This document shows, one piece after another, positions 10,267 through 52,970 of a stretch of 64,000 nucleotides of DNA. The notes below the pieces were generated by a model that did no database searches, was not told the DNA's origin, and saw only the letters and a program-made list of their open reading frames with translations. The position numbers and the translations under genes were made by a program. This DNA comes from Octopus sinensis. Taxonomy: Eukaryota. Where the stretch lies: positions 124,001 through 188,000 of the forward strand of contig NW_021836180.1 in assembly GCF_006345805.1 (NCBI RefSeq). The letters run 5' to 3'. Within the stretch, counting starts at the first letter, position 1; each line of letters starts with the position of its first letter.

Positions 10267-11038
10267 TTAGGCAACCATTTTGTTTTTTATGAAGTTTGTA
10301 GCTTTTTCTAGTAACTTCTCTGAATACAGTGGTTGTATATTCTGAGATTCCAGCCACACAATTGCTTTCTTTTCAATAAATTCCCATTCACAGTGCTGGG
10401 AAGCTAATTTTTCTCTTAGTACAGCAACAACAAGAGCTGTAGCCCATACTTTATCACTAACAGATGGATTCTCTTTGTTCAGATCCTTAAGAGAAATATT
10501 GAGAGCTTGAGCCAATTGATCATCTAGATTCCAGAAACCAGAGAAAGCTTGTAGATCAACCAAACCTGTTAAAATGTCCTTAATTGTTCCCTTTGAAGAG
10601 GTTAAGTCTGAGTGAGGTGACTGTCTTGAATTCTCAGCATTTATACTTAAGGAATTATTTATGGAAGCATACATTCCAGCTATATCTTCTCTCGGACGTA
10701 CTGGCATTGGCATAGAGTGTTGTAAAACTCTGTTGTAAAACTTACGGAACATTCTTACTATTGCAGGAACATTCTTACTACGAGAACGCCTGGCTTTAGG
10801 TGTAAATGTCCTAGAGACTGTTTGAATAGCAACTGGAACATGTTCATCCAAAGCAACAAAACTTGTGTACTTTGAAACTAAATTAGCCATTGTACCCAAA
10901 TCGATAATCTCTGATTTTATTTCATCACCTTTACCCAAATCTTCATTTAATTCCAATTCCTGTATTTTCCTTTTCACACAAAGACGGTGTATTGTCATTT
11001 CCTTATTATTCTGTCCCAACAACCTTGCTTCAAAATCA
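10267..11038 (-). pseudogene. VWA5A-like copy A, 3' fragment only (VIT, vWA and splice acceptor deleted)
   Basis: Nearly identical to the 3' third of copy C. At 11038/11039 the sequence jumps from the equivalent of 37265 to the equivalent of 39774, a 2.5-kb deletion. Confidence 0.85.
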
Positions 11039-12043
11039 GTGAAGACATTTGACTTTGCTAACACTGAATATGGATTCCATAAGTTTTGTGATAAAACTCT
11101 TCCAACATATTCCTGTGTCTTACAACACTACCCAACAAGTTGTACTTTTGGTCTTTAGTGTTTGTTCTATATTATCCCATCATGAAACTAAAATGGATTC
11201 ATCTTAATTTTCATTCTTTTACTTGTTTCAGTTATTAAACTGCGACCATACTGGGGCACTGACTTGAAGATGTGAGTAGAGCAAATCTCTTAACAGAAAT
11301 CCAGAATAAGATGTACACATAAATGTCAAGGTTTTTCAAATAGTATCTAATATCATAAGAATGATAGTAATGATGAACCAAGATAAAATACAGATGTGAT
11401 AAACGTAGGATAGAGTTTTATACAATTATTTGTCTCAGATATTTATTTATTAAACCCCGTTTCGTTAAGGAATTTCTAATGACAAAAGACAATATGAAGC
11501 CTGGTGAGTAATGAACCTATAGCTACATAATGATTATTTTACTTAGTTTTGTAGAGTTAAATGCTTGCTACTCAGTTTGAATGTCTTTAACTGTTTCTCT
11601 ACTATATTTCAGTTGAAATGCATGGCATTTGTTTTGATTAATTTTCAAAATAATGAAGAATTTAGTGATATAACTTTGTCATTATTAAGCTGGTGTTTGG
11701 GACATAAACTACAACGATGTTTTGAGGGAAGGTTATAATTTCATAACAAACAGGAAGTTTGTGTCACTGAATCCCCAAAAGTGCGTAAATGGTTTTTTTC
11801 AATCTTGTTTTTAGTCTTGGAAATATATTTACATTTCACACAAAAAAATAACACAAAATCAACAAATATAGGATTATGGCTCTATATTTCATTATATTTT
11901 ACAGCTGTATAGATATATAAAATATTTGTTTACAGATATTTTAGAGGAATTAGTAAAGTATTGATATACAAGTTAAAATGTTAAGGTATTTTTCTCGGTT
12001 ATACAGTAGTGAAAGTTTTAAAATATGAAATAAACAGAAATCG

Positions 12044-14338
12044 CTAGGCAACCATTTTGTTTTTTATGAAGTTTGTAGCTTTTTCTAGTAACTTCTCTGA
12101 ATTCATTGGTTGTATATTCTGAGATTCCAGCCACTCAATTGCTTTCTTTTCCATTAATTCCCATTCACAATGCTGGGAAGCTATTTTTTCTCTTAGTACA
12201 GCAACAACAAGAGCTGTAGCCCATACTTTATCACTAAGAGATGGATTCTCATCGTTCAGATCCTTAAGAGAAATATTGAGAGCTTGAGCCAATTGATCAT
12301 CTAGATTCCAGAAACCAGAGAAAGCTTGTAGATCAACCAAACATGTTAAAATGTCCTTAATTGTTCCCTTTGAAGAGGTTAAGTCTGAGTGAGGCGACTG
12401 TCTTGAATTCTCAGCATTTATACTTAAGGAATTATTTATGGAAGCATACATTCCAGCAATAACTTCTCTTGGACGTACTGGCATTGGCTCTGATTGTTGT
12501 AAAACTTTTTTGGACTTACACAAAAGTTTTGGTTGTGGCGAAGAAGCACAATAACGTATGGCTCTATGTTTTGGAGCTGCCATAGAGGCCATTTGAAAAT
12601 CCAATCGAACATGTTCATCCAAACCAACAAAACTTGTGTACTTTGAAACTAAATTAGCCATTGTACCCAAATCGATAATCTCTGATTTTATTTCATCACC
12701 TTTACCCAAATCTTCATTTAATTCCAATTCCTGTATTTTCCTTTTCACACAAAGACGGTGTATTGTCATTTCCTTATTATTCTGTCCCAACAGACTTGCT
12801 TCAAAATCAAGTGAAAAGTCTGATTCACCAATTTTACCACAAAGATTCAATTTCACATTTTTGCAACTAGTCTCAGCTTCATGCAAAACTAGATAAAGGA
12901 TTAATTTTTCTTCACTGAAAATACATGGCAGCCTTTCTGGAACTGAAATAAAGGATAATTCTTTATTGTTTTCACCATGTTTAGCAGAGAGACAAACCGA
13001 AGATACAAATGGTTGCATTGACAATTTTAATAAACGCATAACTTTTGCCTTAAGGTTGTCGTTTGTCATCACAAACTCTGCTTGTCCCTTCCCTGCGCGG
13101 GCAATACCTTTGACCAATTCTGTAGAAGCTCCAGAACCAATACCAATTGTGAAGTATCGTGTGTTGTTTACTTGTGACTTGACCAATTGAATGACATCGT
13201 TTGTGTTGTAGACAGCACCATCAGTTATTAAGAATACTTGTCGATGGAAATTTTGAAATGGTTTTTTGTCAGAGAGTGATTTCAGTGCACTAAGAATTTC
13301 TGTCCCTCCCGAAGCATATAGATTTTTCTGAAATTTCAATGCTTCATTCAGAGAATCTTCACTATATTCTCGGCTTCCTTCTTTGAACAGAAATTCAAAA
13401 TCATTATTGAAGCTGATAGCATTAAATGAGCAACCCAAAGGTAAACTTTTTAAGAAAAGTAACAAAGTATCTTTTGCTGCTTCAATTTTCTCTCCAGTCA
13501 TGCTTCCTGAGCGATCAATAACAAAAATATAGTCATTAGCGGCAGATTGTTTTACTTGCGGAAGTTCTGGAAACACATTTATCATCATAATATCTTTAGA
13601 AAACATTCCTTTAGAATTCTCATCTCTTTTCTCTAAAATTACTTGTGGTTTTTCTACATCTTCATAGTACACTTGCAGAAGAAGGTCTTTCTCAAAATTG
13701 AATTCCTTTGCCATTCTCACAGTAGCATGACACTTGTTATCCTGATATTCCACGTTAACTGGATGTTCTGATTTGATGTCTTTGATTTGTGAATTCCAGT
13801 TGACAGAGGCATTGAAACTAAACTCTTTTGGTTTAGGTGCATTTTGATAATTTTCATCTGCAGGTTTAAGACCATATCTGGGATTAAGCACAAATGGCAT
13901 ATGAAATTTCACTGCCCCATCAACTTCACAAGAAAGTTCAGAAACAAGGCATATTTGTAAATGGATCTTTTCATTTGCTGGAATATTACCTAAACTATAC
14001 TCAAAAATATCGCCAGATGTACTTGTCTCTCGCAACAAAATGGCAGACTGACCTTTATCTACAGCTTGTTTGTATTCCTTTTTGGCAACATCTTTGTCTT
14101 TAGATTTGGCAACTAAATGGACATCACCAATTTTAGCTTCGAATTTATATACGGCACTGTCTTCTTCCACAGGGAAAACAAACTTAGCTTCTGTCTTGTG
14201 TTGGCTTTCATTTATATATTCAGCCTCGATGTTGACGTGTGACGTAAAACCATTAATGGAAATCGTGTGTGTGGCATAGAGAAGAGAAACCTTTGTTTTA
14301 TTTTCACAGATGATTCCAAATACCATTAGTCTATTCAT
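12044..14338 (-). CDS. VWA5A: VWA5A-like protein (VIT + vWA + C-terminal helical region), copy B, intact 764 aa, intronless CDS
   Basis: Open 764-aa ORF. N-terminal VIT domain (EAKFVFP..SAVYKFEAKIG..GDIFEYSLGNIPANE), vWA MIDAS elements FVIDRSGSM, GGTE and LITDG, and C-terminal LQAFSGFW..VWATALVVA..W..EKKA..WL typical of VWA5A/PARP4-type proteins. No hydrophobic signal peptide. The symbol is a family-level call. Confidence 0.9.
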   Translation of the reverse strand: MNRLMVFGIICENKTKVSLLYATHTISINGFTSHVNIEAEYINESQHKTEAKFVFPVEEDSAVYKFEAKIGDVHLVAKSKDKDVAKKEYKQAVDKGQSAILLRETSTSGDIFEYSLGNIPANEKIHLQICLVSELSCEVDGAVKFHMPFVLNPRYGLKPADENYQNAPKPKEFSFNASVNWNSQIKDIKSEHPVNVEYQDNKCHATVRMAKEFNFEKDLLLQVYYEDVEKPQVILEKRDENSKGMFSKDIMMINVFPELPQVKQSAANDYIFVIDRSGSMTGEKIEAAKDTLLLFLKSLPLGCSFNAISFNNDFEFLFKEGSREYSEDSLNEALKFQKNLYASGGTEILSALKSLSDKKPFQNFHRQVFLITDGAVYNTNDVIQLVKSQVNNTRYFTIGIGSGASTELVKGIARAGKGQAEFVMTNDNLKAKVMRLLKLSMQPFVSSVCLSAKHGENNKELSFISVPERLPCIFSEEKLILYLVLHEAETSCKNVKLNLCGKIGESDFSLDFEASLLGQNNKEMTIHRLCVKRKIQELELNEDLGKGDEIKSEIIDLGTMANLVSKYTSFVGLDEHVRLDFQMASMAAPKHRAIRYCASSPQPKLLCKSKKVLQQSEPMPVRPREVIAGMYASINNSLSINAENSRQSPHSDLTSSKGTIKDILTCLVDLQAFSGFWNLDDQLAQALNISLKDLNDENPSLSDKVWATALVVAVLREKIASQHCEWELMEKKAIEWLESQNIQPMNSEKLLEKATNFIKNKMVA

Positions 14339-14354
14339 GTTTGCAATGAAAGTG

Positions 14355-16315: not shown

Positions 16316-16346
<31 letters not shown>

Positions 16347-20163: not shown

Positions 20164-20197
<34 letters not shown>

Positions 20198-26578: not shown

Positions 26579-29405
26579 CCCAGTATGGCCACATCTCTAA
26601 TGACTGAAGCAATGTATATATATATATAAATATGAGGTAACAAACAAAGGAAAAAATTCCTTCAAAGGTATGTGTAAAACATCCAATTCACTTGTATGTT
26701 GTTGAATACCACATAAATATGGTATAATGTAAATTACGTATAATAAATTAAATAGAGAGTTACAAATGACAATCAAATAATTATTTATATCATAATATAA
26801 CATAATATACTATGAATATAATATAAGAAACAATCATTTAAAAAAACAAAATAGCAAACATTTGTTTCGACTTATATACATTTTTTAATATATAAACAAT
26901 TTCAATTCCCTTATATATAAGCCTCATCAGGGGCAAGGTGCTGTGAATTGTAGAAAGAACTTCTTCATTTGTGTTGTGTCATGTCTTCAATATTTTGAAG
27001 AATTGTATTATTGAAGTGAAATATTTCAGTCCCGCATCACTGCGTCTTGTTCATCTCATTTCGCTAGTCGCTCTCTTTTATTCAACTTGCTCTTACGACC
27101 ATACTCGCTTCATGGAGTATGGTTGAAAGGCAAAGTCGACCTCGGCGGAATTTGAACCCAGAACGTAACAGCAGATGAAATATGGCTACGCATTTCGCCC
27201 AGTGTGCTAACAACTCTGCCAGCTTGCCGCCTTTGCTAAGTTACAGGAATGTAAACACAGCAACACCAGTTAGCAAGCAATTGTTGGGCTACAAACACAA
27301 AACATGCACACACATACACATATACACGACAGTCTTCTTTCAGTTTCCGAGTACGAAATCCACTTACAAGGTTTTGGTTGACCTGAGGCTATAATAAGCA
27401 TATATATATTATATATATAGTAGCTGACATACCCCGTAATTTCCAGGAAAGCGGGCTCATCCCTTAGTTCTGTTCTCATAATTGTTTTGCTAATTCAGTA
27501 ACAACAATACAAAGTATGTAGCCCTTAAAGTATGTAGCCTTGAGAATACCGAACTGTCTTACAAAGGATCTTGTTTTTTGGAATTCCCAATAAGTTATGA
27601 ATACTCAAATTGTGAAGTCAGTTATGTAATAACATGAAATTTATTACCCTATAGTAAGAATTCAAATAATGTAGCCCCAAAAAGGGCTTTAATATGTTCC
27701 CAGAGTATATAGATTTTAGGAGGAAATACTAAATGCTTTTGTGCGTTCCCAGAGAATATTCCCCTCAGCAGCGCTAGTGTTGCTATATTTGTGAATAAGT
27801 CACTAACCGAAATAAGTGGATCTATTGTTTAGGAGAATACTATTTACTTGTTTAAGCGTTGTCTTGGATAAATTGAGAAAATAACTAAAGGAGAATACTA
27901 TTTACTTGTTTAAGCGTTGTCTTGGATAATTGAGAAAATAACTAAAACACTCAAATACTAAGAAATAAGCATAATGAAAATGAATGGGTTATTCCCCCTT
28001 GATGGTTATTCCAGGAGGGAATGGGTTATTTCCCTTGGAAGCTTAAAATAATTACTCACACCGTTCACTCATGCCCAAAGTTATTCCTCTTGCTGTTTAC
28101 CCGAACATTTTTTCGAAATCAATTAATACTTAAAACCTCCCCAGATACATAAGGAATGTACGTTGAAGTTTAAGAAAATTGGTCAAGCCATTTTGATGCA
28201 AAAACGAGACATACCGATACACACACACACGCACAACCACTTTCAGTTTTAATATATAAGATTTACTGGCTTCTTTCAGTTTCTGTCTACCAAATCCACT
28301 CACAAGGTTTTAGTTGTCCCAAGGCTGTAATAGAAGACACTCGCCCATGATGCCACGCAGTGAGACTGAACCTGGAACCATGTGGTTGGGAAGCAGGCTT
28401 CTTACCACAAAGCCATGCTGTGCCTTACATATATACGTGTGGATATATGCACACATATATACAAAAAAGATGTATGCATATGAAATATAATGGGTGTATG
28501 TGTGTTTGTGTGACCAACTAGAAGTACATAGAACTGAATACGGCATGCAAAAAGTAAATAAAAAAAATTTTCTACGTAAATTAATGAACAATCAAATTTT
28601 GACAGTTCTGAGGGATATACCGAAAGAATGTCCGTTTAACTTTTATATTTTTCTTTGTTTCAGTTATTAAGACTGTGGCCATGCTGGGACATCGTCTTGA
28701 AGAATGTTTTTACTTGTATGAATTGATCCCAGAACTATTTTCTTTTTTCTTTATGTCTGGAACTTATTCATTAGTTTCTTTAGCCAAACCGCTAAGTTAC
28801 AGAGATGAAAACACCAACACTGGTTGTCAAATGGTGGCGGGGGGGGGGGCAAACACTGACACACACACACCTGACAGGCTTCTTCTAGTTTCCATCTACC
28901 AAATCCACTCACAGGGCTTTGGTCGGTCCAAGGCTCTCGTAGATAATGCATACCCAAGGTGCCATGCAGTGGGACTGAACCCGAAACTATGTGGTTGGGA
29001 AGCAAGCTTCCTACCACACAGTCCTCTTACAATGAATAGATGTTTAGCAGACTCTCTCTCTCTCTGTTATATATACATGAGTACGGACGTAGTAGATAAC
29101 AGCTAGCCTTTGGCCACTGTTTTGCACCCTGTTGTATTGGTTGGTATTGGCGCACTTTTGTCTCTTGCTCTGTTACACACCAATGTGCAACCCAACCAAT
29201 CGAAGCCTTCTATCAACCGTGTAGTGTACTAAAGGGGCCTTTCTCATCACCTCTCCTTCGCATGGTCGTTTACAGATAATACACCTGACATCCTGTCTGA
29301 CAGGTACGGGACTTAAATAGGAAGATCGCCTCGGTTTTATTTAAGTTCTATCTTTATGCCATCTTTATTACCTCTGGCATTTTAAAAGCTTTATATAATA
29401 CAAAG

Positions 29406-29439
<34 letters not shown>

Positions 29440-32338
29440 GTATGTGAATTCGGAACGTCTGTGTGAGAGAGTGTGCATGTGAGAGGAAGAGAGTAAAAGT
29501 GAGAGGAAATGTGTGAGGCAGAGAGAAAGGGGGAGAATGTGTATGTGAAGGCGCGGAAGAGACAGATTGAATGCGTTCATGTATGAAAGAGAAAGAGAAG
29601 TATTTCAGTGAAAACGAAGCAGCTCCTTAGAAGTTGCTCAATTTGCACGAAATAGCAGCCAATTCTTTTGAAATCTCATCCTACCGTCTTAAATAAAGAA
29701 ATACACCCAGGACTATGTTATCCTGTATATATGAAAAGGCGCACGCATGGAGCAGGTTTGATCATAGGTGTCGCTCGATCAGTGTTGTCATGGAGTTACG
29801 ATAACACGTAACTCTTAGTGATGAGAGAATATAAACAGATGAAAAGCAACTGAGAAATTATAGACACAAATCAATTAGATAAGAAAAACATTGATTTGGT
29901 CACTCGACAACAGTTATCGCAGTTCAATAAAAACACATTTTAACAACTTCCTATAGCAAAGAAAATGTAATTTCACTGACCCGAAAGAGTTAAATATGTA
30001 AGGAAAGAAAAAAAAATGGATAAAGAAAAGTTGAAAATCAATTAAAAAATGAAAATGGATTAATTCGGGGGGGAACCGTTGAATAAAACAAAACGATTTA
30101 TCATAGTCGAAGTAGATATCTAACAATTTTTTATGTATTTATCGAAGTTAAAGTAGATATCTAACAACTTCTTGAGGCAAAAGAGGCGTGGCTGTGTGGT
30201 AAAAAGCTTGCTTTCCAATCACATTGTCACGGATTCGGTTCAACTGCGTAGCACCTTGGACAGGTGTTTTGCACTGTAGCCTTCGACCAACCAAAGCCTT
30301 CTGAGTTTTTTTTTTAGAATGGAGGATATGAGGAGTGGGTACTATTTAAAAAGAGTGGTCCCGGTGCGCGCACTCGTGTACTCGCGCAACAGCGCTAGCT
30401 AGTCGTGACTAGTCGATCCTAAAACGACTACCTAGCAAAGTAAATAAACACAAAATAACTTTTTTTTTTTACACAAAGTAAATAAAACACAAAAACACAC
30501 AGTAAGGATCGACCAGTCACGACTAGCTGGCGCGGATGCGCGAGTACGCGCACCGGGATCACTCTCTGTATATAGTATCTTAGGAGTGTTCGCCAGGATG
30601 ATTTAAACTAATAGGTATGTAACCCAAATTCCTGACAGTAACATATAAATATATATGTGAAGCGAGTGTCCTACTCATCTCTTTCCAAAAGCATAAAAGT
30701 CCGTACGTTTTACGCATGCGTAGATTTCACCTGAAACAGCAGACGACAAAATATGAAGCCCTCACCAGAAAACTCGATATGCTAGAAATAACAGCTAAAC
30801 GTCCGAAAATATCTTTTCCTCAGCTTAACGCCCTTTTTTCTTTCTTTTTTTCTTTTCTCTAAATCTTAACTCTCCGTATCTATTTGAATCTTGTTGCCAT
30901 GCTACAATTATCTTCGTGTTGTGTTTATAAAGAAATAGTAATAATTCGTACCGAAAATTTTGTTAAATATGCGTATTTGTATCAAGTTGAACTGCAACGA
31001 ACCTGTGTGTGCTGCTACAGCCAATGCCACCATATTTCAAGCAGGGGTATTAGAAAAGTTTTCCATTACAATTTGTGATTAAATTAATAAGTAAGATTAA
31101 TATTTATAATGAATTTGCCATTTTCGATGGGTGTGCACCGCACACCAAGCACATCCAGAATATACGCCCAGCGTGTGTGTGTGTTTCCTAAGAAAATTTG
31201 AAATGAAAAATTCTTTTTGGATCTTTTCTTTTAGATGGACGGAATTTTCTAGTTAACTAAAAAAATTTGAAACTTCGTATACTGGTAGAATGTGTCAAAA
31301 CAAAACATTATTGGATCCTTTTTTTTTTTTCCATATTCATAAACACCGTATGTTTCCAGGAGGATTAAACAGAAAAAAAAAAAATTTTTTAAAAGTGAAA
31401 AATTTTAAAATTGGGGGGGGGGGGATTAAAATTTTGAAAACGTATTTTTATTTAAGCAAAGTCGCTCGTAATCTCCGATTTCGAAAACGTAGGAATCCAA
31501 AGAAAGTTATGAAAAAAAAAAAAAAAAAAAACAGAAGGGGTGCTTGCACTTTACCCCCACCAAGAACCGATAGAATATGTGCTAGGTTTTAAAAATATGT
31601 CCTGGGGTCGATTTGTTCGACTAAAACACATCAAGGCGGTGCTCCAGCATGACCGCAGTCAAATGCCTGAAACAAGTAAAAGATAAAAGGTACCCATCAC
31701 ACAAGTGCGTCTCCCACCCGACATCGACGGAAGCTGTATAGTGACCAAAATTACTTTGTCGATTCATTCGACTAAGATTCCTTAAGGCGGTGCCCCAGCA
31801 TGACCACAATCAAATCACTGGAACAAATAAATGATAAAAGAAAGGTAACAACTGGCCCCATGGCAAAATAACGGGTTAACATGCAGTTTACAGATGAAAA
31901 AAGAAAATAGTGTCAATATAAAAGTGAAAGCGAATTGCAATGAAAATTAGAGGCGTCAATATCGCCATCCTATAATTTCAAGTGGAAAATATATCTTCAT
32001 AGACAAGGGCGGAAAATAAGTCCGAATTAAAAAATTAAAAAGCATTTCCCAAATAATGAATATAAATCATTTATAGAGAAAATAAATATTGATTATGTCA
32101 CTTGTCAATGATGATCGAAGTCCAATATAGATGTTTTAGCAACTTTTTACAGAAAAGTAAAAGCAATATCACCAACTTCGAGGAAATAGATTTCAAAAAG
32201 GGGTAAAAATACGTTTAAAAGCAATAGAAAAACTAATGAGCACAAACCAATTATAAGAAAAGACCGTTGTTTAGATTAAGTCATTTGTCAATTATCACGG
32301 TCCATGAAGAAGCTTTAAAATTATCGCAGTAAGTTGTT

Positions 32339-32515
32339 ACTTACCTGTTGAGAGAAATAAAAGGTGAAATATGTCTCGTTGATAAGTTTAAAGTTTATAA
32401 TTCAAGAGGATAAAATAAACAACGAGTATATATCCGGGTTTCTTTTCTGCCAAAAGAAATTGTACGAAACGGAACTGCGTATATATGAAGTGGAAAGTAA
32501 TCTTACAGATTGGTT
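32339..32515 (-). promoter_or_regulatory. Candidate promoter plus leader exon, unit 2 (would serve copy B)
   Basis: Copy of 6130-6305, with donor CAG|GTAAGT at 32339-32347. Confidence 0.45.
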
Positions 32516-32918
32516 GAATATCTTAATAGCTTAGAAGTTCTGTTCTCCACGTAAAATGCATCAACAGAAAAGTACGAGCAACCCGGTTAAGCGAGAAACG
32601 TAAATTCATTAATAAAACAAATTTTAACTATAATACCAAAGCAGATGATGAACCAGATTATATAATGGTGCGCCACCAACACAAATTAGACGGAGAAGGG
32701 GAGGACGAAGAGAGAGAGAGAGAAAGAGAGAGGAGGCGTGGGAGAGGCCAGCAACGCCCATCAATGCATTTATATTGACAATTACGAAAACCTCTTTCTA
32801 CAACCACTTGGGACCTCTTGGTGTTCAATTGATATTTTTCTTACTTTTTATTTCCTTTTTTCTCCTCTTCGCTCCTGTTTGTGTTCGGTTTGGATTTGTA
32901 TTTTAATGTTGTTTTATG

Positions 32919-32970
<52 letters not shown>

Positions 32971-35900
32971 CTTTATATAAATAAATAACGTGAAATACAC
33001 GAAGAGACGAACAAAAAGACAAACAAGTCATTCAAGCCTTTATTCTTCAGTCAGAAACTGATCCCTCATCGCAGATTTCGGCTGTTTAATTCTGAGATCC
33101 GCTCTGAATCAGCCAGCCACAGAAGGAAAGAATGAAACGCAACAGAGACGAACAGGAAACAAAAAATCTTTTTTGGGGACAGTAACGATTGAAAACATGA
33201 ATGACACAGGCACCCTACGGCTTTGAGACAAACAGAGAGACACAAAAATAATAATAATATGTATATATATATATATATTCCTCTTTATATATATAGTGAT
33301 ATACTACAATAAACATATTTCGATTGGAAAAACAACAAAAAATGAGGAATGTAAAAACTAATTGCGAAACGAAATAGTTTCATTTGGTGTAAACGGATGC
33401 AATATGTATCCTTGTGTAAATAATATTATCATAGTTAAACCAAGCTGTGAATAAGCCAAAGATTTGGTGTTGGTGTTGATAGCTAATCGTATATCTCTTG
33501 TGTGCCATGTTTGTCATTGTAGATTCTGTGATCAAATCCTGGAGGGGGTTTCCTCAATGCAAGGGGTCTATCCTGCATACATTGTAACGTATAGTCTGTT
33601 ATTCAATTACTTGTTTTAATTATTGGACATCTGCCATGTTGGGGCACTGTTTTCAGAGGTTTAGTTATCTTTTCGCTTTGACCGGCAGATTTTAAAAATA
33701 ATTTCTTTGTAACTAAACACTTTTAAACTTCGTATACCGGTAGAATGTGTTTATAAAACATCTTTTTCTCTTGGCTTTCTTGAGAGAATTATGTAGTTTG
33801 TAAGCTATTTGTTGTTTAATTTCTTGCATTTCGGCAATTTCAACCAATCAATGACGTCTATTGAGGTGAATTTTTTTTTAACCTTGAAATACTGTAAATG
33901 TGTGTGTTTCTTTTGATGAAAGGGTGTTTTAAGAGAGATTTGCTATATTTGTAGTAGCTCAAGTTACCAGACACACACACACGTGTGTGTGTGTGTGTGT
34001 GTGTGCATGTGTGTTTTGTTGTGGGGAAAAAAATACTTTCTCTCGGAATATTTTGCACGATAATTTTTAAAGAAATCTGGTCATCTTTCTTACTGCCAAC
34101 CATCCCACTTCAGATTACAATTGTTAATTGTTGGAAGTCAAGTAGACTGAGATGCACATATACTGTTACCGTATAGAGTGGAAGTTCAATACGAAGTCTT
34201 GAACTCATTATCCTGTGGTTAGTAACCCATTACCTTAAAGTTGAAACCATTAAGTCTTTAAACATTATTTTGTTTGGTTTTCTTTCGACTGTTGCCATGA
34301 TGATGTATCGCCTTCAAAAATTTAATTGATCATACTGACCTCAATACGTATTTCAATCTGGCATTTATTTTATAGATCTCTGCTTGATGAACTTCTAACT
34401 TGGAGACATAGTGGGACGAATGACTGTGTAGTTGAGAAGTTTGCTTCCCAACCATATGGTTCCATGTTCAGTCGCTTTGCATAGTAGCTTGGGCAAGTGT
34501 TTTCTACTATAGCCCCTAGATCAACCACAGATATCTGACTGAATTTGGTAAACGGAAACTGCAGGGTTGTTAATCACAAAATGACCGAAAAGCATGTTCA
34601 TAAGGTAGAGTTGTTTGCTTCATGTTCCACGTGTGCTAATTCTGCCCGTAAGAAAGAAACAATGTGACTGTAGGTCATTACACCTGGGCAACTATACACC
34701 TAAAACCACACTAATAGCTTAGGAGTGAAATTTAGGATTTCACAGTTTTCTGTGAATTGATTTTGATAAAACTTTTCCCAGCTGGTTTGCACACTATAGC
34801 AACACTATTGTTTTGTTTTCATTATTTTGCGTAACGTCCTTTCATTTTTTTTTATTTCAGATTCTTCAGTTTTTGGGTGTACCACACTAATAACTTTTAA
34901 ATGAAAATAGTCTATCTAGACATTTTTCCAGAAAGTGAAGGGGGATCTTTACCTTTTGACTGACAGATTTTAAAAATAATTTTTTGTAACTAAACACTTT
35001 CAAACTTCGTATACTGGTAGAATGTGTCACATAAAACATCTTTTAATCTTGGCGTTTTTGAGAAAATTCTGTATTTTGGAAGTTATTTCTTGTTAAAGTT
35101 GTCGTATTTTGGTAATTTCAACCAATCAATGACGTGTATTCAGCTGAATAAAATTACTGCTGTTGTTTGTTAACTACAACTATTGGCGTGTTTGTCACTG
35201 TTATTTTTGACATTGTTCATGCATTTGTACTGGTTTTAGCTTTAAGGTGTTAGGGTTAGGATTTTAGGGTTAAGGTTTTAGGGTTAGGGTTTTAGAGTTA
35301 GGTTTAAGGTTTTAGGGTTAGGGTTGGGGTTTTAGGGTTAGGGTTACGGAAAAAAATGAAAAATGAAGCACGAACAATTATGGTGGTGCTATAAAGTAAA
35401 CATGCTTCAGATACACTCGTTTATTCATACAAACGTAACTGAGATTAAATATGTCATAAATAAAACGACAAACGAAATATACACTGCCGGAAGTTGTTGA
35501 TAAGAAACAACAGCATTAATTTTATTCATCTGAATACACGTCATTGATTGGTTGAAATTACCGAAATATGACAACTTTAACAAGAAATAACTTCCAAAAT
35601 TTGAGAATTTTCTGTGACACATTCTTACCAGTATACGAAGTTTGAAAGTGTTTAGTTACAAAAAATTATTTTTGTTACAAAACTTTACAACCATGATATT
35701 TAGGGTTCAGTCCCACAAGACAATACCTTCAGCAAGTGTCTTCTATTATAGCCGAGAGCAGACCAATTCCTTGTGAGTGTGTTTGGTACACAGGAACAGG
35801 GTGGAGGCCCATTTTGTGTGTGTGTGTGAGTGTGTTTATTATACCTCCTCATAATTTAGCTGTTCTACCATAGAGACTGATGGAATAACTACCCAATTTT

Positions 35901-36493
35901 AAAATAAATGAGTTTTGGGGTTGATGTGTTTAACTAAAAAATGCCTTTTAGGTTGTGACTTAGAATGGCTGCAGTCCAACGACCAAAATGAGTTGTGGAT
36001 AAAAGACGGGATATGGTATACACATAGTTACATTAAAATTCCGATTCACAAAACGTGTACAGGGCCAGAAATGTGTGTAGAGTATGTAATTGATTTAATC
36101 AATTTTATTTCTTAATTGGCCATTCTTTTATGGACATCAAAAGCATAAAAAGCAAAGCCAAGATTGGTGACTATTGCACCTACAGCTAAAAAAAGAAAAA
36201 AATCAAATAATTCAGTTCCATGCAGAGTTAAATGTTCAGTACTCAGTTTGAATGTCTTTAAACTTCATATATTCATATTGCACACAGAAAATAACACAAG
36301 TTCAATAAATATAAGGATTATGGTTTTATATTTTATTATATTTTACAGCTGTATAGATATATAAAATATTTGTTTATTGATCTGTTACAGGAATTAGCTG
36401 AGTAAAAGTAATGATATACAAGTTAAAATGTTAAGGTATTTTTCTCAGTTATACAGTAGTGAAAGTCTTAAAATATGAAATAAACAGAAATTG

Positions 36494-38792
36494 TTAGGCA
36501 ACCATTTTGTTTTTTATGAAGTTTGTAGCTTTTTCTAGTAACTTCTCTGAATACAGTGGTTGTATATTCTGAGATTCCAGCCACACAATTGCTTTCTTTT
36601 CAATAAATTCCCATTCACAGTGCTGGGAAGCTAATTTTTCTCTTAGTACAGCAACAACAAGAGCTGTAGCCCATACTTTATCACTAACAGATGGATTCTC
36701 ATCGTTCAGATCCTTAAGAGAAATATTGAGAGCTTGAGCCAATTGATCATCTAGATTCCAGAAAACAGAGAAAGCTTGTAGATCAACCAAACCTGTTAAA
36801 ATGTCCTTAATTGTTCCCTTTGAAGAGGTTAAGTCTGAGTGAGGTGACTGTCTTGAATTCTCAGCATTTATACTTAAGGAATTATTTATGGAAGCATACA
36901 TTCCAGCTATATCTTCTCTCGGACGTACTGGCATTGGCATAGAGTGTTGTAAAACTCTGTTGTAAAACTTACGGAACATTCTTACTATTGCAGGAACATT
37001 CTTACTACGAGAACGCCTGGCTTTAGGTGTAAATGCCCTAGAGACTGTTTGAATAGCAACTGGAACATGTTCATCCAAAGCAACAAAACTTGTGTACTTT
37101 GAAACTAAATTAGCCATTGTACCCAAATCGATAATCTCTGATTTTATTTCATCACCTTTACCCAAATCTTCATTTAATTCCAATTCCTGTATTTTCCTTT
37201 TCACACAAAGACGGTGTATTGTCATTTCCTTATTATTCTGTCCCAACAACCTTGCTTCAAAATCAAGTGAAAAGTCTGATTCACCAATTTTACCACAAAG
37301 ATTCAATTTCACATTTTTGCAACTAGTCTCAGCTTCATGCAAAACTAGATAAAGGATTAAATTTTCTTCACTGAAAATACATGGCAGCCTTTCTGGAACT
37401 GAAATAAAGGATAATTCTTTATTGTTTTCACCATGTTTAGCAGAGAGACAAACCGAAGATACAAATGGTTGCATTGACAATTTTAATAAACGCATAACTT
37501 TTGCCTTAAGGTTGTCGTTTGTCATCACAAACTCTGCTTGTCCCTTCCCTGCGCGGGCAATACCTTTGACCAATTCTGTAGAAGCTCCAGAACCAATACC
37601 AATTGTGAAGTATCGTGTGTTGTTTACTTGTGACTTGACCAATTGAATGACATCGTTTGTGCTGTAGACTTCACCATCAGTTATTAAGAATACTTGTCGA
37701 TGGAAATTTTGAAATGGTTTTTTGTCAGAGAGTGATTTCAGTGCACTAAGAATTTCTGTTCCTCCTGAAGCATATAGATTTTTCTGGAATTTCAATGCTT
37801 CATTCAGAGAATCTTCACTATATTCTTGGCTTCCTTCTTTGAACAGAAATTCAAAATCATTATTGAAGCTGATAGCATTAAATGAGCAACCCAAAGGTAA
37901 ACCTTTTAAGAAAAGTAACAAGGTATCTTTTGCTGCTTCAATTTTCTCTCCACTCATGCTTCCTGAGCAATCAATAACAAAAATATAGTCATTAGCGGCA
38001 GATTGTTTTACTTGCGGAAGTTCTGGAAACACATTTATCATCATAATATCTTTAGAAAACATTCCTTTAGAATTCTCATCTCCTTTCTCTAAAATTACTT
38101 GTGGTTTTTCTACATCTTCATAGTACACTTGCAGAAGAAGGTCTTTCTCAAAATTGAATTCCTTTGCCATTCTCACAGTAGCATGACACTTGTTATCCTG
38201 ATATTCCACGTTAACTGGATGTTCTGATTTGATGTCTTTGATTTGTGAATTCCAGTTGACGGAGGCATTGAAACTAAACTCTTGGTTTAGGTGCATTTTG
38301 ATAATTTTCATCTGCAGGTTTAAGACCATATCTGGGATTAAGCACAAATGGCATATGAAATTTCACTGCCCCATCAACTTCACAAGAAAGTTCAGAAACA
38401 AGGCATATTTGTAAATGGATCTTTTCATTTGCTGGAATATTACCTAAACTATACTCAAAAATATCGCCAGATGTACTTGTCTCTCGCAACAAAATGGCAG
38501 ACTGACCTTTATCTACAGCTTCTTTGTATTCCTTTTTGGCAACATCTTTGTCTTTAGATTTGGCAACTAAATGGACATCACCAATTTTAGCTTCGAATTT
38601 ATATACGGCACTGTCTTCTTCCACAGGGAAAACAAACTTAGCTTCTGTTTTGTGTTGGCTTTCATTTATATATTCAGCCTCGATGTTGACGTGTGACGTA
38701 AAACCATTAATGGAAATCGTGTGTGTGGCATAGAGAAGAGAAACCTTTGTTTTATTTTCACAGATGATTCCAAATACCATTAAACAATCCAT
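36494..38792 (-). CDS. VWA5A: VWA5A-like copy C, 2-bp frameshift at ~38282 (766 aa if repaired); pseudogene or sequencing error
   Basis: ORFs 38274..38831 (likely ATG at 38792, MDCLMVFG) and 36494..38347 join if 2 T are restored (CTCTTGG vs CTCTTTTGG in B/D). MIDAS reads DCSGS. Confidence 0.85.
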
Positions 38793-38808
38793 ATTGTATT
38801 TAAAATAC

Positions 38809-38830
38809 CTGTATAGAAAAAAAATAAACA
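38809..38830 (-). other. Splice acceptor upstream of copy C (unrelated to the B/D acceptor)
   Basis: Minus strand TGTTTATTTTTTTTCTATACAG|GTATTTTAAATACAAT-ATG. Confidence 0.65.
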
Positions 38831-39147
38831 AAAATTAATGCAAAAAACCCCCAAAAATGGAATTATTGAGGATCCTGATGATAATTACATGTAAAGATCA
38901 AAATAGGAAAAAAATTCATATATAAATATGGCATGTTAGTCATGATTGCCACTTGTAACATGTCACCTAGTACAGTCTGTACCATATCTGAACTGTCAAC
39001 GACTAAACTGGCAAAAACACCAAGAGTGCTTGGTGGGTAGGATGCTATCTGGATGCATTGAAGGATGTAAAATCTGTCAAAGACCTGCCAAAGGTTTGGT
39101 GAAGTGAAGAGAGGCACAGGCCATTCAATTACATAAAATTTATATAC

Positions 39148-39780
39148 ATTGATCCCTTGCTACTACGCAGTTCAACTATCGCAGATTTTTAAAATATATA
39201 TATATGAACACCTAAAATTTTTCATTTAATCCATTAAAATATTAATAATAAATATTATTTACTAGTCTAGGAACAACAAAACAAGCATAAAATAGCAAAA
39301 AAGCATATACAGGGGTATTTGAACTTAAGACAGGCTGTGATTGGTGCAATGGAGAGAGATGATGAATTGCAGCTTTCTATTTTGTAATCTGGCCTGTGAT
39401 TGGTGCTTTGTCTGACGCTCAGATCTGCAGCATCTTCCCTTTCGCGGCCATTTCGCTTCAGGCTTTCTCGCTTAGTGGTTTACTGTACTATTTTACGCTG
39501 TGCAGTGTGTAATTCTTTTTGTTTCTTTGTGTTGAATTTTGCATTTTCATCCCCTGCAATGGCTCCCAAGCGTGCTGCTTCTTCCAAGGCTGATACTGAG
39601 CCTAAATGCAAACGAAGAATGATGTCGATTGCTGAGAAGGTGAAACTTCTGGATATGTTGAAGGAAGGGAGAACTTTCGCTGCCATTTTAGCGTGAACAG
39701 ATCCACTGTTCACTACATCAAGAAGGATGAGGCTAACATTAGGAAAACGGCTGCCATCACCTTTAATATGTCGGTGAAGA
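39148..39780 (+). mobile_element. Tigger/pogo DNA transposon 5' fragment
   Basis: TIR-like GATCCCTTGCTACTACGCAGTTCAACTATCGCAG. From the ATG at 39559: MAPKRAASSK..KRRMMSIAEKVKLLDMLKEGRTFAA..NRSTVHYIKKDEANIR, a CENP-B-type HTH, frameshifted and truncated. Confidence 0.8.
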
Positions 39781-40224
39781 CATTTGACTTTGCTAACACT
39801 GAATATGGATTCCATAAGTTTTGTGATAAAACTCTTCCAACATATTCCTGTGTCTTACAACACTACCCAACAAGTTGTACATTTGGTCTTTAGAGTTTGT
39901 TCTATATTATCCCATCATGAAACTAAAATGGATTCATCATAATTTTCATTCTTTTACGCGTTTCAGTTATTAAACTCCAACCATACTGGGGCACTGACTT
40001 GAAGATGTGAGTAGAGCAAATCTCTTAACAGAAATCCAGAATAAGATGTACACATAAATGTCAAGGCTTTTCAAATAGTTTCTAATATCATAAGAATGAT
40101 AGTAATGATGAACCAAGATAAAATACAGATGTGATAAACGTAGGATAGAGTTTTATACAATTATTTGTCTCAGATATTTATTTATTAAACCCTGTTTCTT
40201 TAAAGAATTTCTAATGACAAAAGA

Positions 40225-40783
40225 TGAGTCTATCGTGAATATTGTCGTGCCACCTTCCTTGAAACTGGAAGGAAGAACCATTTTCATTGTACTTGTGGCT
40301 ATAGTGAAAGAATGTGTATGTGTATTATTTGAAGAGGAAGGTGAGAGTAGAGAGGGAAGTTTTGTCTAGTGAATGTTTAAAAAAAAGATGGGTGAATGTA
40401 GCAAGGATGGCATGTGTGAATGACAGAGCCAGCTTGAGCATAATCCTACGAACCAAAAAAAAAAAAGGGGAAAAGAGAGCCACTTACTGTAATGTGTTTA
40501 TTTTTGCATGACACTATTGCCGAAGGTTTTCGTGGTCTTTTCTGTAGGCTTTTCTTTCCATGGATAAACTTAATCTGTTTTCTCTTTTTACATTGACATT
40601 TCTGTGATACACGATCCCTATTGATTACACTCCCACCACCATTTTTTTTTTTCACGATCCCTTTTGATCGGAATTCGACCAACTTTTTTTTCTTCTTTTC
40701 TTCTTCTTCCCCAAAAGAAAAGCTCTACTTTGTATTTTTTCCCCTCTGTATTTCAGTCCTGTGTGGCCAGTAAAGAAACATAT
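40225..40783 (+). mobile_element. 5'-truncated L1/Tx1-like LINE, absent from unit 1
   Basis: ORF2 C-terminus-like text (ESIVNIVVPP..IFIVLVAIVKECV..LKRKVRVERE..KKRWVNVARM) and a T-rich 3' UTR. Imperfect TSD TAATGACAAAAGA/TAATGACCGAAGA. Empty site at ~11477-11490. Confidence 0.6.
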
Positions 40784-41388
40784 AATGACCGAAGACAATG
40801 TGAACCTACAGCTAAATAATGATTGTTTTCCTCAATTTAGTAGTGTTAAATGCTGAGAACTCTGTTTAAATATCTCTAACTAATTCTCTACCATATCTCT
40901 GCTGAATTGCATTGCCTTTGTTCCAATTAATTTTCAAAATAATGAAGAATTTAGTGATATAACTTTGTCATTATTAAGCTGGTGTTTTAGGGCAGCAAGC
41001 TGGCAGAATCTTTAGCACCCTGGGCAAAATGCTTTGCGGTATTTCATCTGTCATCACATTCTAAGTTCAAATTCTACCAAGGTCGACTTTGCTCATCATC
41101 CTTTCGGGGTCGATCAAATAAGTACCAGTTACGTACTGGGGTCGATGTAATCGACTTAATCTCTTCCCACAAATTTGAGGCCTTGTACTTCCAGTAGAAA
41201 GGATTACTAAACTGGTGTTTGGGACATAAATTAGAATAATATTTTGATGGAAGGTTACAATTTAGATAACATAAAAGTAAGAAGTTTGTCACAGAACCTG
41301 CAAAGTCTTGGAAATATATTCACACTTGATACACACAAAAAAAAATAAATAATAATAATAACACAAAATCAACAATTACAGGATTATG

Positions 41389-41720
41389 TTACGTTCATAT
41401 ATTTGATGAGCAAGATTTTTTTATGTGAAGTTGTGTGTTGAAACATAGACGCACATAGAGATATACACATGCGCAAATGAAGACACATACAATAGAAACA
41501 CAAAATGGCTGACAGTTAGTAAGGTGAGACACAAATAAGAAAGAAGAAAGCAAAGGACCACTGATGTGGTCACAGGAGTGTGACGAAAGAACTCTGGCCG
41601 AAATAAGATTAAGATTAATGTAAAAAATAAATAACACTGAAGCAAAGTAACACCAAATATATAGTGCGTGTGTTTTTATTGGCTAAACTGGCAAAATGAC
41701 CATTCCGAAATACAACAATA
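41389..41720 (+). mobile_element. Penelope-like fragment with a degenerate hammerhead, absent downstream of copy B
   Basis: Flanked by duplicated AGGATTATG. Contains CTGATGT-G-GTCACA-GGAG-TGTGAC-GAAA and ends ...CCGAAATACAACA. Confidence 0.45.
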
Positions 41721-41895
41721 TAGGATTATGGCTTTATATTTTATTATATTTTATAGCTGTATAGATATATGAAATATTTGTTTACAGATATTTTAGAGGA
41801 ATTAGTAAAGTATTGATATATAAGTTAAAATGTTAAGGTATTTTTCTCAGTTATACAGTAGTGAAAGTTTTAATATATGAAATAAACAGAAATCG

Positions 41896-44282
41896 CTAGG
41901 CAACCATTTTGTTTTTTATGAAGTTTGTAGCTTTTTCTAGTAACTTCTCTGAATTCATTGGTTGTATATTCTGAGATTCCAGCCACTCAATTGCTTTCTT
42001 TTCCATTAATTCCCATTCACAATGCTGGGAAGCTAATTTTTCTCTTAGTACAGCAACAACAAGAGCTGTAGCCCATACTTTATCACTAATAGATGGATTC
42101 TCTTTGTTCAGATCCTTAAGAGAAATACTGAGAGCTTGAGCCAACTGATCGTCTAGATTCCAGAAACCAGAGAAAGCTTGTAGACCAACCAAACATGTTA
42201 AAATATCTTTATTTGTTGACCCAGAAGACATAAAGGATTCCTCATCAGTCACACGTCGTACTTTAAATGGGGGAGGCATGCAACTTGAATCCACAGAATC
42301 AGCACCAAAAGAATCACCATCATCAGAGTCATCCTCCAATTCATCATCAATGTCATCTACTCTTTCAGCAACTACAGAATTTTGATTGTATGCTTGTGGT
42401 GAAGCTAAACACATCATTGGCATGCAACGCCTTTTCATAAATTCTGGAACATGTTTCTTCACACCAAACGCTTTTATTCGTGACGAAGAAACATAACCAC
42501 ACATGGCACTACGTGTTGGAGCTACCAGAGAGGCCATTTGAAAATCCAATCGAACATGTTCATCCAAACCAACAAAACTTGTGTACTTTGAAACTAAATT
42601 AGCCATTGTACCCAAATCGATAATCTCTGATTTTATTTCATCACCTTTACCCAAATCTTCATTTAATTCCAATTCCTGTATTTTCTTTTCACACAAAGAC
42701 GGTGTATTGTCATTTCCTTATTATTCTGTCCCAACAGACTTGCTTCAAAATCAAGTGAAAAGTCTGTTTCACCAATTTTACCACAAAGATTCAATTTCAC
42801 ATTTTTGCAACTAGTCTCAGCTTCATGCAAAACTAGATACAGGATTAATTTTTCTTCACTGAAAATACATGGCAGCCTTTCTGGAACTGAAATAAAGGAT
42901 AATTCTTTATTGTTTTCACCATGTTTAGCAGAGAGACAAACCGAAGATACAAATGGTTGCATTGACAATTTTAATAAACGCATAACTTTTGCCTTAAGGT
43001 TGTCATTTGTCATCACAAACTCTGCTTGTCCCTTCCCTGCGCGGGCAATACCTTTGACCAATTCTGTAGAAGCTCCAGAACCAATACCAATTGTGAAGTA
43101 TCGTGTGTTGTTTACTTGTGACTTGACCAATTGAATGACATCGTTTGTGTTGTAGACTTCACCATCAGTTATTAAGAATGCTTGTCGATGGAAATTTTGA
43201 AATGGTTTTTTGACAGAGAGTGATTTCAGTGCACTAAGAATTTCTGTCCCTCCCGAAGCAAATAGATTTTTCTGGAATTTCAATGCTTCATTCAGAGAAT
43301 CTTCACTATATTCTCGGCTTCCTTCTTTGAACAGAAATTCAAAATCATTATTGAAGCTGATAACATTAAATGAGCAACCCAAAGGTAAACTTTTTAAGAA
43401 AAGTAACAAAGTATCTTTTGCTGCTTCAATTTTCTCTCCACTCATGCTTCCTGAGCGATCAATAACAAAAATATAATCATTAGCGGCAGTTTGTTTTACT
43501 TGCGGAAGTTCTGGAAACACATTTATCATCATAATATCTTTAGAAAACATTCCTTTAGAATTCTCATCTCCTTTCTCTAAAATTACTTGTGGTTTTTCTA
43601 CATCTTCATAGTACACTTGCAGAAGAAGGTCTTTCTCAAAATTGAATTCCTTTGCCATTCTCACAGTAGCATGACACTTGTTATCCTGATATTCCACGTT
43701 AACTGGATGTTCTGATTTGATGTCTTTGATTTGTGAATTCCAGTTGACGGAGGCATTGAAACTAAACTCTTTTGGTTTAGGTGCATTTTGATAATTTTCA
43801 TCTGCAGGTTTAAGACCATATCTGGGATTAAGCACAAATGGCATATGAAATTTCACTGCCCCATCAACTTCACAAGAAAGTTCAGAAACAAGGCATATTT
43901 GTAAACGGATCTTTTCATTTGCTGGAATATTACCTAAACTATACTCAAAAATATCGCCAGATGTACTTGTCTCTCGCAACAAAATGGCAGACTGACCTTT
44001 ATCTACAGCTTGTTTGTATTCCTTTTTGGCAACATCTTTGTCTTTAGATTTGGCAACTAAATGGACATCACCAATTTTAGCTTCGAATTTATATACGGCA
44101 CTGTCTTCTTCCACAGGGAAAACAAACTTAGCTTCTGTCTTGTGTTGGCTTTCATTTATATATTCAGCCTCGATGTTGACGTGTGACGTAAAACCATTAA
44201 TGGAAATCGTGTGTGTGGCATAGAGAAGAGAAACCTTTGTTTTATTTTCACAGATGATTCCAAATACCATTAGTCTATTCAT
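41896..44282 (-). CDS. VWA5A: VWA5A-like copy D, 1-bp frameshift at ~42685 (795 aa if repaired); pseudogene or sequencing error
   Basis: ORFs 42663..44282 and 41896..42696 join if one C is restored (TTTTCTTTTC here vs TTTTCCTTTTC in the other copies). 10 aa differences from B over the first ~533 aa, plus a unique acidic linker. Confidence 0.85.
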
Positions 44283-46376: not shown

Positions 46377-46410
<34 letters not shown>

Positions 46411-52402: not shown

Positions 52403-52970
52403 GATCAGGGTGGCGTGTGGGATGACGTCAGCAGCCGGGTGCGTTGACCGGAAGCTAGGGCAACCGGAAGGGGCCAGCGTCAGGCGTGCGCAGGGAGCGG
52501 GGAATTGCGCCCTTTCCAACGTGGGTCGTGGAGGTGACAAGATGTGTGAGGACGTCGCTAAGGGTTTGGGCTAGCAGCTGCTATCGTTAGTGTTCGGGTC
52601 GGGGCTGTGTGGAAGGACTAGTCACCGTTGGAGGGTCTCCGTCACTAAGAAGAGAAGGTAGGTGCCTCTATATTCAAATCGCGCACACACTACACCCAGT
52701 ATGGCCACAGTCTAATGACTGAAGCAAATGTATATATATATATAAATATGAGGTAACAAACAAAGGAAAAAATTCCTTCAAAGGTATGTGTAAAACATCC
52801 AATTCACTTGTATGTTGGTTGAATACCACATAAATATGGGTATAATGTAAATTACGTATAATAAATTAAATAGAGAGTTACAAATGACAATCAAATAATT
52901 TATTTATATCATAATATAACATAATATACTATGAATATAATATAAGAAACAATCATTTAAAAAAACAAAA

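What the first reader, a model, noticed from the sequence alone, without database searches (positions are those of the whole stretch)
12044..12625. Copy B is a mosaic of D-type and A/C-type segments (gene conversion shuffling)
B has the D-type acceptor, N-terminus (MNRL) and linker start (GLDEHVRLDFQMAS). It switches to A/C-type for VLQ..PMPVRPRE.IAGMYASINNSLSINAENSRQSPHSDLTSSKGTIKDILT, then returns to D-type at the end (ELMEKKAIEW..QPMNSEK, TAG stop and flank). Single sites also cross-sort: LNDEN in B and C vs LNKEN in A and D; LTC in B and D vs LTG in A and C. Inference: patchwork conversion between neighbours creates new linker combinations while homogenising the scaffold.
Basis: partly seen in the sequence, partly recalled or inferred. 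Interest (0 to 1): 0.7.

Follow-up and report, generated by a model that had tools for sequence, protein, structure and literature searches.

The report
Swappable linkers in octopus VWA5A array
Tandem octopus copies of a VWA5A-like gene are about 99% identical in their core but carry very different linker types, likely because DNA exchange between copies evens out the scaffold and reshuffles old linkers; copy B is a real linker type rather than a simple patchwork of its neighbours, and copy D is likely the clearer hybrid.

Summary
The sequence pattern is there. Copy B's first switch is not an assembly chimera: short-read contigs from 3 of 4 runs laid span it with no mismatch. No record spans all of B.

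The reading 'B = D + A/C + D' needs correcting:
- Only 23 linker bases are D-specific. The rest of B's prefix differs from D at 19 of 86 sites.
- B's linker is collinear with A/C's throughout.
- LTC/LTG is the ordinary AC|BD pattern. Only the LND/LNK codon cross-sorts.
- Most 'D-type' tail residues are ancestral.
- D looks like the hybrid: a 35-codon B-like prefix in front of a complete second-class linker, which O. vulgaris carries without the prefix.

Family-wide exchange is supported: scaffolds sort by species, while linkers sort by class across species. This is ordinary concerted evolution with a divergence peak, not found described for this family. B and D prefixes differ by 15 replacement and 0 silent changes (P about 0.01, uncorrected). 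A bait-like role, as in ITIH4, is possible but untested.

The parts
12044..14338 (-). Copy B: intact single-ORF VWA5A-like gene (VIT 25-130, vWA 271-422 with DxSxS/T/D metal-site residues, linker about 572-660, helical C-terminal domain 661-764)
12584..12606 (-). Linker start identical to D and unlike A/C (RLDFQMAS codons); the only D-specific identical stretch of the linker
12458..12583 (-). Hypervariable linker part with 21 B-only columns. Over 12606-12521 B differs from D at 19 of 86 and from C at 33 of 83; over 12520-12458 from C at 11 of 63. A further variant exists in run X1.
12344..12457 (-). 'S module' (AGMYASINN...SSKGTI), shared by A, B and C (B-C 1 of 114), not homologous to D's linker
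12044..12364 (-). C-terminal helical domain (CTD). B is closer to C down to about 12239 and closer to D from 12170 to the stop.
12251..12253 (-). LND (B, C) versus LNK (A, D) codon: the only four-gamete-incompatible sites among the four copies
10267..11043 (-). Copy A: 5'-truncated S-class copy. It equals C minus about 2.5 kb (37272-39770), with GTGAA microhomology at the junction; the junction is spanned by zero-difference contigs in X1 and X2.
36494..38792 (-). Copy C: S-class linker, MDCL start and a different upstream acceptor region; 2-base frameshift near 38284
41896..44282 (-). Copy D: MNRL start, 1-base frameshift near 42686
42454..42558 (-). D's 35-codon B-like linker prefix (15 replacement and 0 silent differences from B in the first 29 codons)
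42212..42453 (-). D's complete acidic 'V-class' linker, starting with its own HVPE, homologous to O. vulgaris P0007 and P0006
955..27091 (.). Tandem unit 1 (holds A and B)
27121..53203 (.). Tandem unit 2 (holds C and D); 0.1-0.6% substitutions from unit 1 in the five long stretches compared, but only 85% identical in the B/D 3' flank

Best explanation
These are tandem octopus VWA5A-like paralogs with a near-identical VIT-vWA core and C-terminal domain but several very different linker classes, likely kept that way by repeated DNA exchange between copies (gene conversion and/or unequal crossing-over) that homogenises the scaffold and moves old linkers between scaffolds. Shown: B carries a complete basic 'S-class' linker, collinear with A/C's, whose first 50 codons are 30% diverged from A/C and whose last 38 are nearly identical; D carries a B-like 35-codon prefix followed by a whole acidic 'V-class' linker. 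Inferred: a fairly recent tract covering the S module and the start of the tail (about 12457-12239) passed between the B and A/C lineages, in an unknown direction; B's distal tail comes from a V-class-type scaffold; D arose by out-of-register recombination at the short ACATGTTC motif found at both of its linker starts. The linker is likely the disordered loop between the core and the C-terminal domain. Linker classes too different to pair would be swapped whole, by tracts anchored in the scaffold on both sides.
For: Sharp rate step inside a collinear linker (44 of 146 versus 1 of 114). One incompatible codon among A-D. Tail affinity changes from C to D (max-chi-square permutation P 0.009 with the three linker-edge sites). 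Scaffold sorts by species: 6 of 208 columns are shared by both O. bimaculoides copies against all five sinensis/vulgaris copies, and 0 by the same-linker-class pair P0008/P0010; AU test of that pair P 0.047. Linkers sort by class across species (P0001-P0007 142 and P0010-P0008 146, against P0001-P0010 62). D-P0007 linker score 314, aligning from D's residue 36. Contigs in X1 and X2 show a V-class linker directly after DEHV, without the prefix, and X2 has a contig that leaves the scaffold at 12365 and rejoins at 12620. Start type assorts independently of linker class: P0006 is MNRL + V, P0007 is MDCL + V. Disordered loop before the CTD: PMC10539598 (passages).
Against: No tract signal in the core (best run P 0.19), and only 1 of 9 run tests under 0.05, uncorrected. 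The tail breakpoint drops to P 0.064 without the linker-edge sites. The S module's B-C identity is not higher than the core rate (Fisher P 1.0) or clearly higher than the tail rate (P 0.19), so fast change in the prefix alone could give the step. The scaffold tree has no starred branch (bimaculoides pair 90/95), and one column joins P0009 with its own linker class. Outgroups were proteins only, some of them partial gene models. The full-length fold was unusable (pLDDT 36), so disorder is not shown here.
Confidence: 0.65

Rival explanations
1. The two 26-kb units are two haplotypes written in tandem by the assembler, so B and D (and A and C) are alleles, and B versus D is an old allelic linker polymorphism reshuffled by ordinary recombination as well as paralog exchange.
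For: Units differ by few substitutions and many indels (13 mismatches and 15 gap openings in 8022 columns; 4 and 21 in 3750; 21 and 122 in 5139). There is an extra 3.7-kb repeat inside unit 1. Divergence peaks locally at the B/D linker and 3' flank.
Against: It does not remove paralog exchange: O. vulgaris has three copies with different linkers listed with the same longest-contig length, and P0002 suggests a further B-like copy. A and B lie 1 kb apart on one unit, joined by overlapping zero-difference contigs in X1 (10992-11666, 11637-11920). Contig depth cannot give copy number.
Confidence: 0.15
2. One reading: B was recently built from a D-type gene by a conversion patch copied from neighbouring A or C.
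For: B sits at D's position in the unit and shares D's upstream region, start and distal tail; the S module is almost identical to A/C.
Against: 19 of 86 differences from D in the prefix, 21 B-only columns, and no clean breakpoint. The six listed letters of the X1 variant are all the A letters inside B's supposed D-type or transition zone, which points to shared ancestry of B and A/C linkers there. B's 3' flank is only 85% like D's. The same 209 bases occur unchanged in runs of two organism labels, so B's linker is not private to this assembly.
Confidence: 0.12
3. No exchange: recent duplications (birth and death) plus very fast point and indel evolution of an unconstrained loop, with the LND codon arising twice.
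For: Weak tract statistics, an unresolved scaffold tree and only one incompatible codon among A-D.
Against: The LND/LNK difference is two base changes in one codon shared across units. Linker classes predate the split from O. bimaculoides while scaffolds carry species-specific residues. D's doubled linker start needs a recombination.
Confidence: 0.06
4. B is a polishing or consensus chimera of collapsed paralogs.
For: The sequence is indel-rich, and several B-only letters (12184, 13214, 13215, 13497, 13627) are replaced in the contigs of all four runs. The link from the S module to the distal tail is not spanned by any record.
Against: Zero-difference contigs of 186-209 bases across the first switch in 3 of 4 runs from 3 studies; S module + LTC in 2 runs; LND + B-only 12238 in X1. 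A chimera could not create 21 B-only columns. P0002 shares B's KR and GAV residues.
Confidence: 0.02

Closest known systems
VWA5A/BCSC-1 and Dictyostelium Vwa1-5 (PMC10539598: passages and section 22 read)
   Same: VIT + vWA core, a poorly conserved loop, then a helical CTD of about 100 residues; lineage-specific amplification (five D. discoideum paralogs).
   Different: Here the copies are 98-99% identical in the core, with discrete exchangeable linker classes; the passages read describe no such homogenisation.
Divergence peak under gene conversion: human red/green opsin exon 5 (PMC3924837, three passages read)
   Same: Low paralog divergence on both sides of a short, highly divergent, replacement-rich segment.
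   Different: The opsin peak surrounds two known functional sites; here the peak is a whole loop with non-alignable classes and no known function.
Clustered protocadherins, regional homogenisation sparing EC2-EC3 (PMC1852091, five passages read)
   Same: Tandem paralogs with homogenised domains around a divergent, possibly positively selected part.
   Different: Their variable part is a folded adhesion domain with a known specificity role; here it is likely a disordered loop, and GC3 was not tested.
ITIH4 protease-susceptible region and alpha-2-macroglobulin bait region (PMC7793589: abstract and six passages read)
   Same: vWA-containing relative (ITIH4 matches B's vWA region at E 1.3e-10) whose long, variable segment acts as a cleavable bait, with complex formation depending on the vWA domain.
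   Different: ITIH4 is a single-gene plasma protein; the octopus proteins belong to a likely intracellular clade and vary between paralogs. No cleavage is shown here.
PARP4 (VIT-vWA ... MINT; PMC12280208, passages read)
   Same: Best solved relative (E 5.7e-36); the CTD profile also hits PARP4 1569-1642 (E 0.0017; Z 6.5, rmsd 3.7, 94 aligned); long disordered regions join its domains.
   Different: No PARP or BRCT family was found in B; vault binding is untested.

Membership tests
VWA5A/Vwa1-like proteins | N-terminal VIT domain followed by vWA domain | tested here: met
   PF08487 E 4e-28, PF13768 E 7e-23
VWA5A/Vwa1-like proteins | C-terminal helical CTD of about 100 residues after a variable loop | tested here: met
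   Model pLDDT 93, six helices; best match T. brucei VWFA protein 9e5c, Z 11.7, rmsd 2.5, 96 aligned
VWA5A/Vwa1-like proteins | Intracellular (no signal peptide); tree placement in the VWA5A clade | not tested
   No signal-peptide tool and no family-wide tree were run; the names come from database labels
Concerted evolution by interlocus exchange | Paralogs within a species more alike than same-class copies between species | tested here: met
   6 of 208 species-diagnostic columns versus 0 for P0008/P0010; AU P 0.047, borderline; branch 90/95 not starred
Concerted evolution by interlocus exchange | Sites incompatible with one tree of the copies | tested here: met
   2 of 23 informative sites, one codon; start type independent of linker class
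Gene conversion (strict sense) | Statistically significant shared tracts between named copies | tested here: inconclusive
   1 of 9 run tests at P 0.039; max-chi-square P 0.009 or 0.064 by site set
Gene conversion (strict sense) | Non-reciprocal transfer with unrecombined flanks | not testable with these tools
   B and D share the 5' flank, but their 3' flanks are 85% alike, which fits crossing-over as well
Divergence peak kept by selection | Replacement changes in excess of silent ones in the peak | tested here: inconclusive
   B-D prefix 15:0, P 0.009-0.013, uncorrected among 13 comparisons; none of the five B-A prefix segments is significant (P 0.21-0.91)
ITIH4/alpha-2-macroglobulin-type bait proteins | Long hypervariable segment next to a vWA domain with its metal site | tested here: met
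   Linkers of 80-160 residues, net charge +8 to -15; DRSGS, T and D metal-site residues read from the sequence (motif definition recalled)
ITIH4/alpha-2-macroglobulin-type bait proteins | Cleavage in the segment leads to an inhibitory or signalling complex | not testable with these tools
   Needs biochemistry
PARP4 MINT (vault-binding) domain | Fold and sequence homology to MINT | tested here: inconclusive
   E 0.0017; Z 6.5, tied with unrelated helical barrels at Z 6.3
PARP4 MINT (vault-binding) domain | Binds major vault protein | not tested
   No complex job was run

The most novel reading that the evidence does not exclude
The octopus VWA5A array is a family of intracellular protease sensors or traps. 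A fixed VIT-vWA/CTD chassis is kept uniform by conversion, while the loop is an interchangeable bait cassette, old enough to be shared between species, diversified by positive selection and recombined into new baits such as D's prefix + V fusion. Cleavage by a pathogen or host protease would release the CTD from the vWA domain, in the manner of ITIH4's bait region.
Probability: 0.15. Interest if true: 0.75.

Novelty: new member of a known kind. Interest (0 to 1): 0.42.

Why it matters
Concerted evolution with a divergent island is textbook, so the mechanism is not new. What is useful is the gene: VWA5A has no settled function, and this array points at the loop before the CTD as the part that varies, with several old classes riding on one scaffold. 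That makes a bait or autoinhibition model testable with natural variants. It also matters for annotation: no database protein with B's linker was returned by the three searches, and one O. sinensis model (P0003) reads as B's core joined to A's tail.

Tried and rejected
1. No whole genome is held and the cluster-member look-up could not be made, so other loci and the coordinates of P0002/P0003 were not seen.
2. GENECONV-like run tests on B, C and D found nothing in the core or in core + tail.
3. The full-length AlphaFold model (14 near-identical rows) was unusable (pLDDT 36). Foldseek gave no match at E 0.001 for the CTD model, and a single-sequence PDB search of the CTD gave none.
4. No S-class linker was returned from another named species in searches covering 48-156, 140-448 and 420-1337 residues or among the 50% representatives. 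This is no proof of absence, and the origin of the S module is unexplained; it has no other match in the window.
5. X1 shows no cover over A's linker (10482-10904) while X2, X8 and X9 do. This could be presence/absence variation, but missing cover in contigs is not evidence.
6. Contig depths were not used for copy number or for phasing.
8. A real B-to-A splice for P0003 was considered: an AG|GT lies at about 12699, but the matching acceptor in A has no pyrimidine tract, and such a joint would be invisible. I read it as a probable annotation artefact, unproven.
9. The earlier-findings look-ups were empty.
10. Literature: 'octopus' + 'VWA5A' gave 0 papers; the spelled-out name gave 1 shrimp paper; 'VWA5A' + 'gene conversion' gave 2 papers, on reptiles by their listing; none of the 15 rows listed mentions VWA5A; one search was seen as a listing only. 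The library lacks most subscription papers, and no supplements were read (the alignments in the supplement of PMC10539598 may bear on family placement).

Full report
Setting. The window holds four minus-strand copies of a VIT + vWA gene: A (10267-11043, 3' part only), B (12044-14338, intact), C (36494-38792) and D (41896-44282); C and D each have a small frameshift. The nearest named proteins are Octopus sinensis VWA5A-like models: one is D apart from the frameshift region, and one is exactly B's residues 1-571 plus A's last 243. The window is therefore very probably O. sinensis. It is built of two tandem units of about 26 kb (955-27091 and 27121-53203); A matches C and B matches D by position. 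The units differ by 0.1-0.6% substitutions with many indels in the five long stretches compared, but by 15% in the B/D 3' flank and 13 of 454 bases upstream of A/C.

The observation. All motifs are as described. B versus C differs at 23 of 1730 core bases, 44 of 146 in the first part of the linker, 1 of 114 in the S module and 11 of 300 in the tail. B versus D differs at 16 of 1731, 19 of 86 in the prefix and 8 of 300 in the tail; the rest of their linkers is not homologous. Among scaffold sites informative for all four copies, 21 of 23 group AC|BD and 2 of 23 (one codon, LND/LNK) group AD|BC. LTC/LTG is part of the majority pattern, so it is not a cross-sorting site.

Is B real? Of 24 runs listed, 18 hold half or more of the sampled words of 12040-12700; I laid 4 of them, all kept as contigs. 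Records with no difference span the first switch in X2 and X8 (12428-12636) and X9 (12428-12613); the longer span holds 27 B=D, 51 B=C and 21 B-only columns. X1 and X2 join the S module to the LTC site, X1 holds LND together with B's private letter at 12238, and X1 has the ELME/AIEW/PMN/TAG tail (2 differences in 306). Against: no record spans module to distal tail; X2 and X8 show V rather than E at the AIEW site in their tail contigs; and five B-only letters are replaced in all four runs (contigs drop rare variants). X9 may be the assembly's own source and is not counted as independent. X8 carries a second organism label; whether it is truly another species I cannot tell.

Who is the mosaic? 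Outgroups change the reading. O. vulgaris P0006 and P0007 have an acidic 'V-class' linker that starts directly after DEHV. D's linker aligns to P0007's from D's residue 36 (score 314), while B aligns to A over its whole length (244), to D over the first 41 residues only (92) and to P0007 not at all (39). D has ACATGTTC at both its first linker start (42558) and the internal one (42453), 35 codons apart. Loose ends in X1 (12607) and X2 (10833) show V-class linkers without the prefix. So D is best read as prefix + V. B's exact D-specific identity covers 23 linker bases (12606-12584). X1 also has a variant of 12477-12597 with 11 differences from B; the 6 listed are all the A letters, which fits common descent of the B and A/C linkers across that zone. 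In the tail, C (LTC), LM (ELME) and N (PMN), like G before the linker, are the outgroup states and A/C are derived; only E of AIEW is a derived state shared by B, D, P0006 and P0007.

Evidence for exchange. In 208 scaffold columns, the two O. bimaculoides copies share 6 residues absent from all five sinensis/vulgaris copies, although their linkers belong to different classes whose best matches lie in O. vulgaris (142 and 146, against 62 between themselves). The same-class pair P0008/P0010 shares no private column and is rejected as a clade at P 0.047. One column goes the other way and the tree has no starred branch. A, D, P0001 and P0014 were left out of that tree (partial, broken or redundant). 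Within the window, tract tests are weak: 1 of 9 run tests gave P under 0.05, and the tail breakpoint has P 0.009 or 0.064 depending on three edge sites. Exchange is therefore well supported for the family over time and only moderately for particular tracts in B; conversion and unequal crossing-over are not separated.

Selection. The first 29 linker codons of B and D differ by 15 replacement and 0 silent changes (P 0.009-0.013), and the six listed X1 letters change 5 codons, all replacements. The core shows pN/pS near 0.5. None of the five B-versus-A prefix segments is significant, and the B-D value would not survive correction for the 13 comparisons run. Diversifying selection is suggested, not shown.

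What the linker is. The tail folds confidently as a six-helix domain, closest to the C-terminal domain of a trypanosome VWFA protein (Z 11.7) and weakly to PARP4's vault-binding MINT (Z 6.5; profile E 0.0017). Boland et al. [quoted passage not shown] The variable segment is that loop by position (inference; my full-length model was too poor to show disorder). In ITIH4, a vWA relative, a long variable segment is a cleavable bait and complex formation needs the vWA domain (PMC7793589, abstract and passages). That analogy underlies the novel case; nothing here tests it, and relaxed constraint on a spacer remains a fair alternative.

Comparison with what is known. A divergence peak amid converted sequence is described for red/green opsins (PMC3924837, passages), and regional homogenisation sparing a variable part for protocadherins (PMC1852091, passages). 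The array works like these. I found no paper on octopus VWA5A or on its exchange in the held library, which lacks most subscription papers.

Verdict. Observation confirmed; interpretation partly supported, with the polarity corrected (B is a genuine linker class, D the likelier hybrid). It is a new member of a known kind, with a modest, testable lead on VWA5A function. Interest 0.42.

Noticed in passing
window 10267-14338; proteins P0002, P0003: P0003 equals B 1-571 plus A's last 243 residues exactly, so it may be an annotation that splices B's core onto the truncated A. P0002 is the same with T281S, hinting at a further B-like copy elsewhere.
   Followed up: partly
window 11036-11043 versus 37271/39771: A is C minus about 2.5 kb with GTGAA microhomology; the junction is real (spanned by zero-difference contigs in X1 and X2), and in X1 overlapping contigs run from B's 3' flank into it.
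   Followed up: yes
window 14336-14400, 38790-38860, 44280-44344: Two upstream acceptor/start classes (MNRL in B and D, MDCL in C) also occur in O. vulgaris and O. bimaculoides proteins (MNRL/MNKL, MDCL/MDYL) and assort independently of linker class.
   Followed up: partly
window 12650-12731: DNA-type runs X8 and X9 hold a contig with 8 listed differences from B just before the linker: a more diverged paralog not in this window.
   Followed up: no
window 14533-18263 versus 18259-22132: A 3.7-kb direct repeat inside unit 1, absent from unit 2; either real or an assembly stutter.
   Followed up: partly
window 59824-64000: Start of a third, older unit-like copy, about 94% identical to 2601-6545.
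   Followed up: no
window 48822-51736 and about 22500-26500: Retrotransposon-like ORFs (zinc knuckle; DUF7047, RVT_3, integrase zinc finger). The unit-1 copy differs mostly by indels (122 gap openings, 21 mismatches), which suggests sequence error.
   Followed up: partly
window 39480-39780: Within the stretch missing from A, a short plus-strand reading looks like the start of a Tigger/CENP-B-type transposase (recalled resemblance, not tested).
   Followed up: no
window 9015-9125: Short degenerate TTAGGG-like interstitial repeat.
   Followed up: no
proteins P0008, P0014: A third linker class with an internal repeat (two CLS.TFRR-like blocks in P0008) is shared by O. vulgaris and an unnamed record (score 426).
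   Followed up: partly
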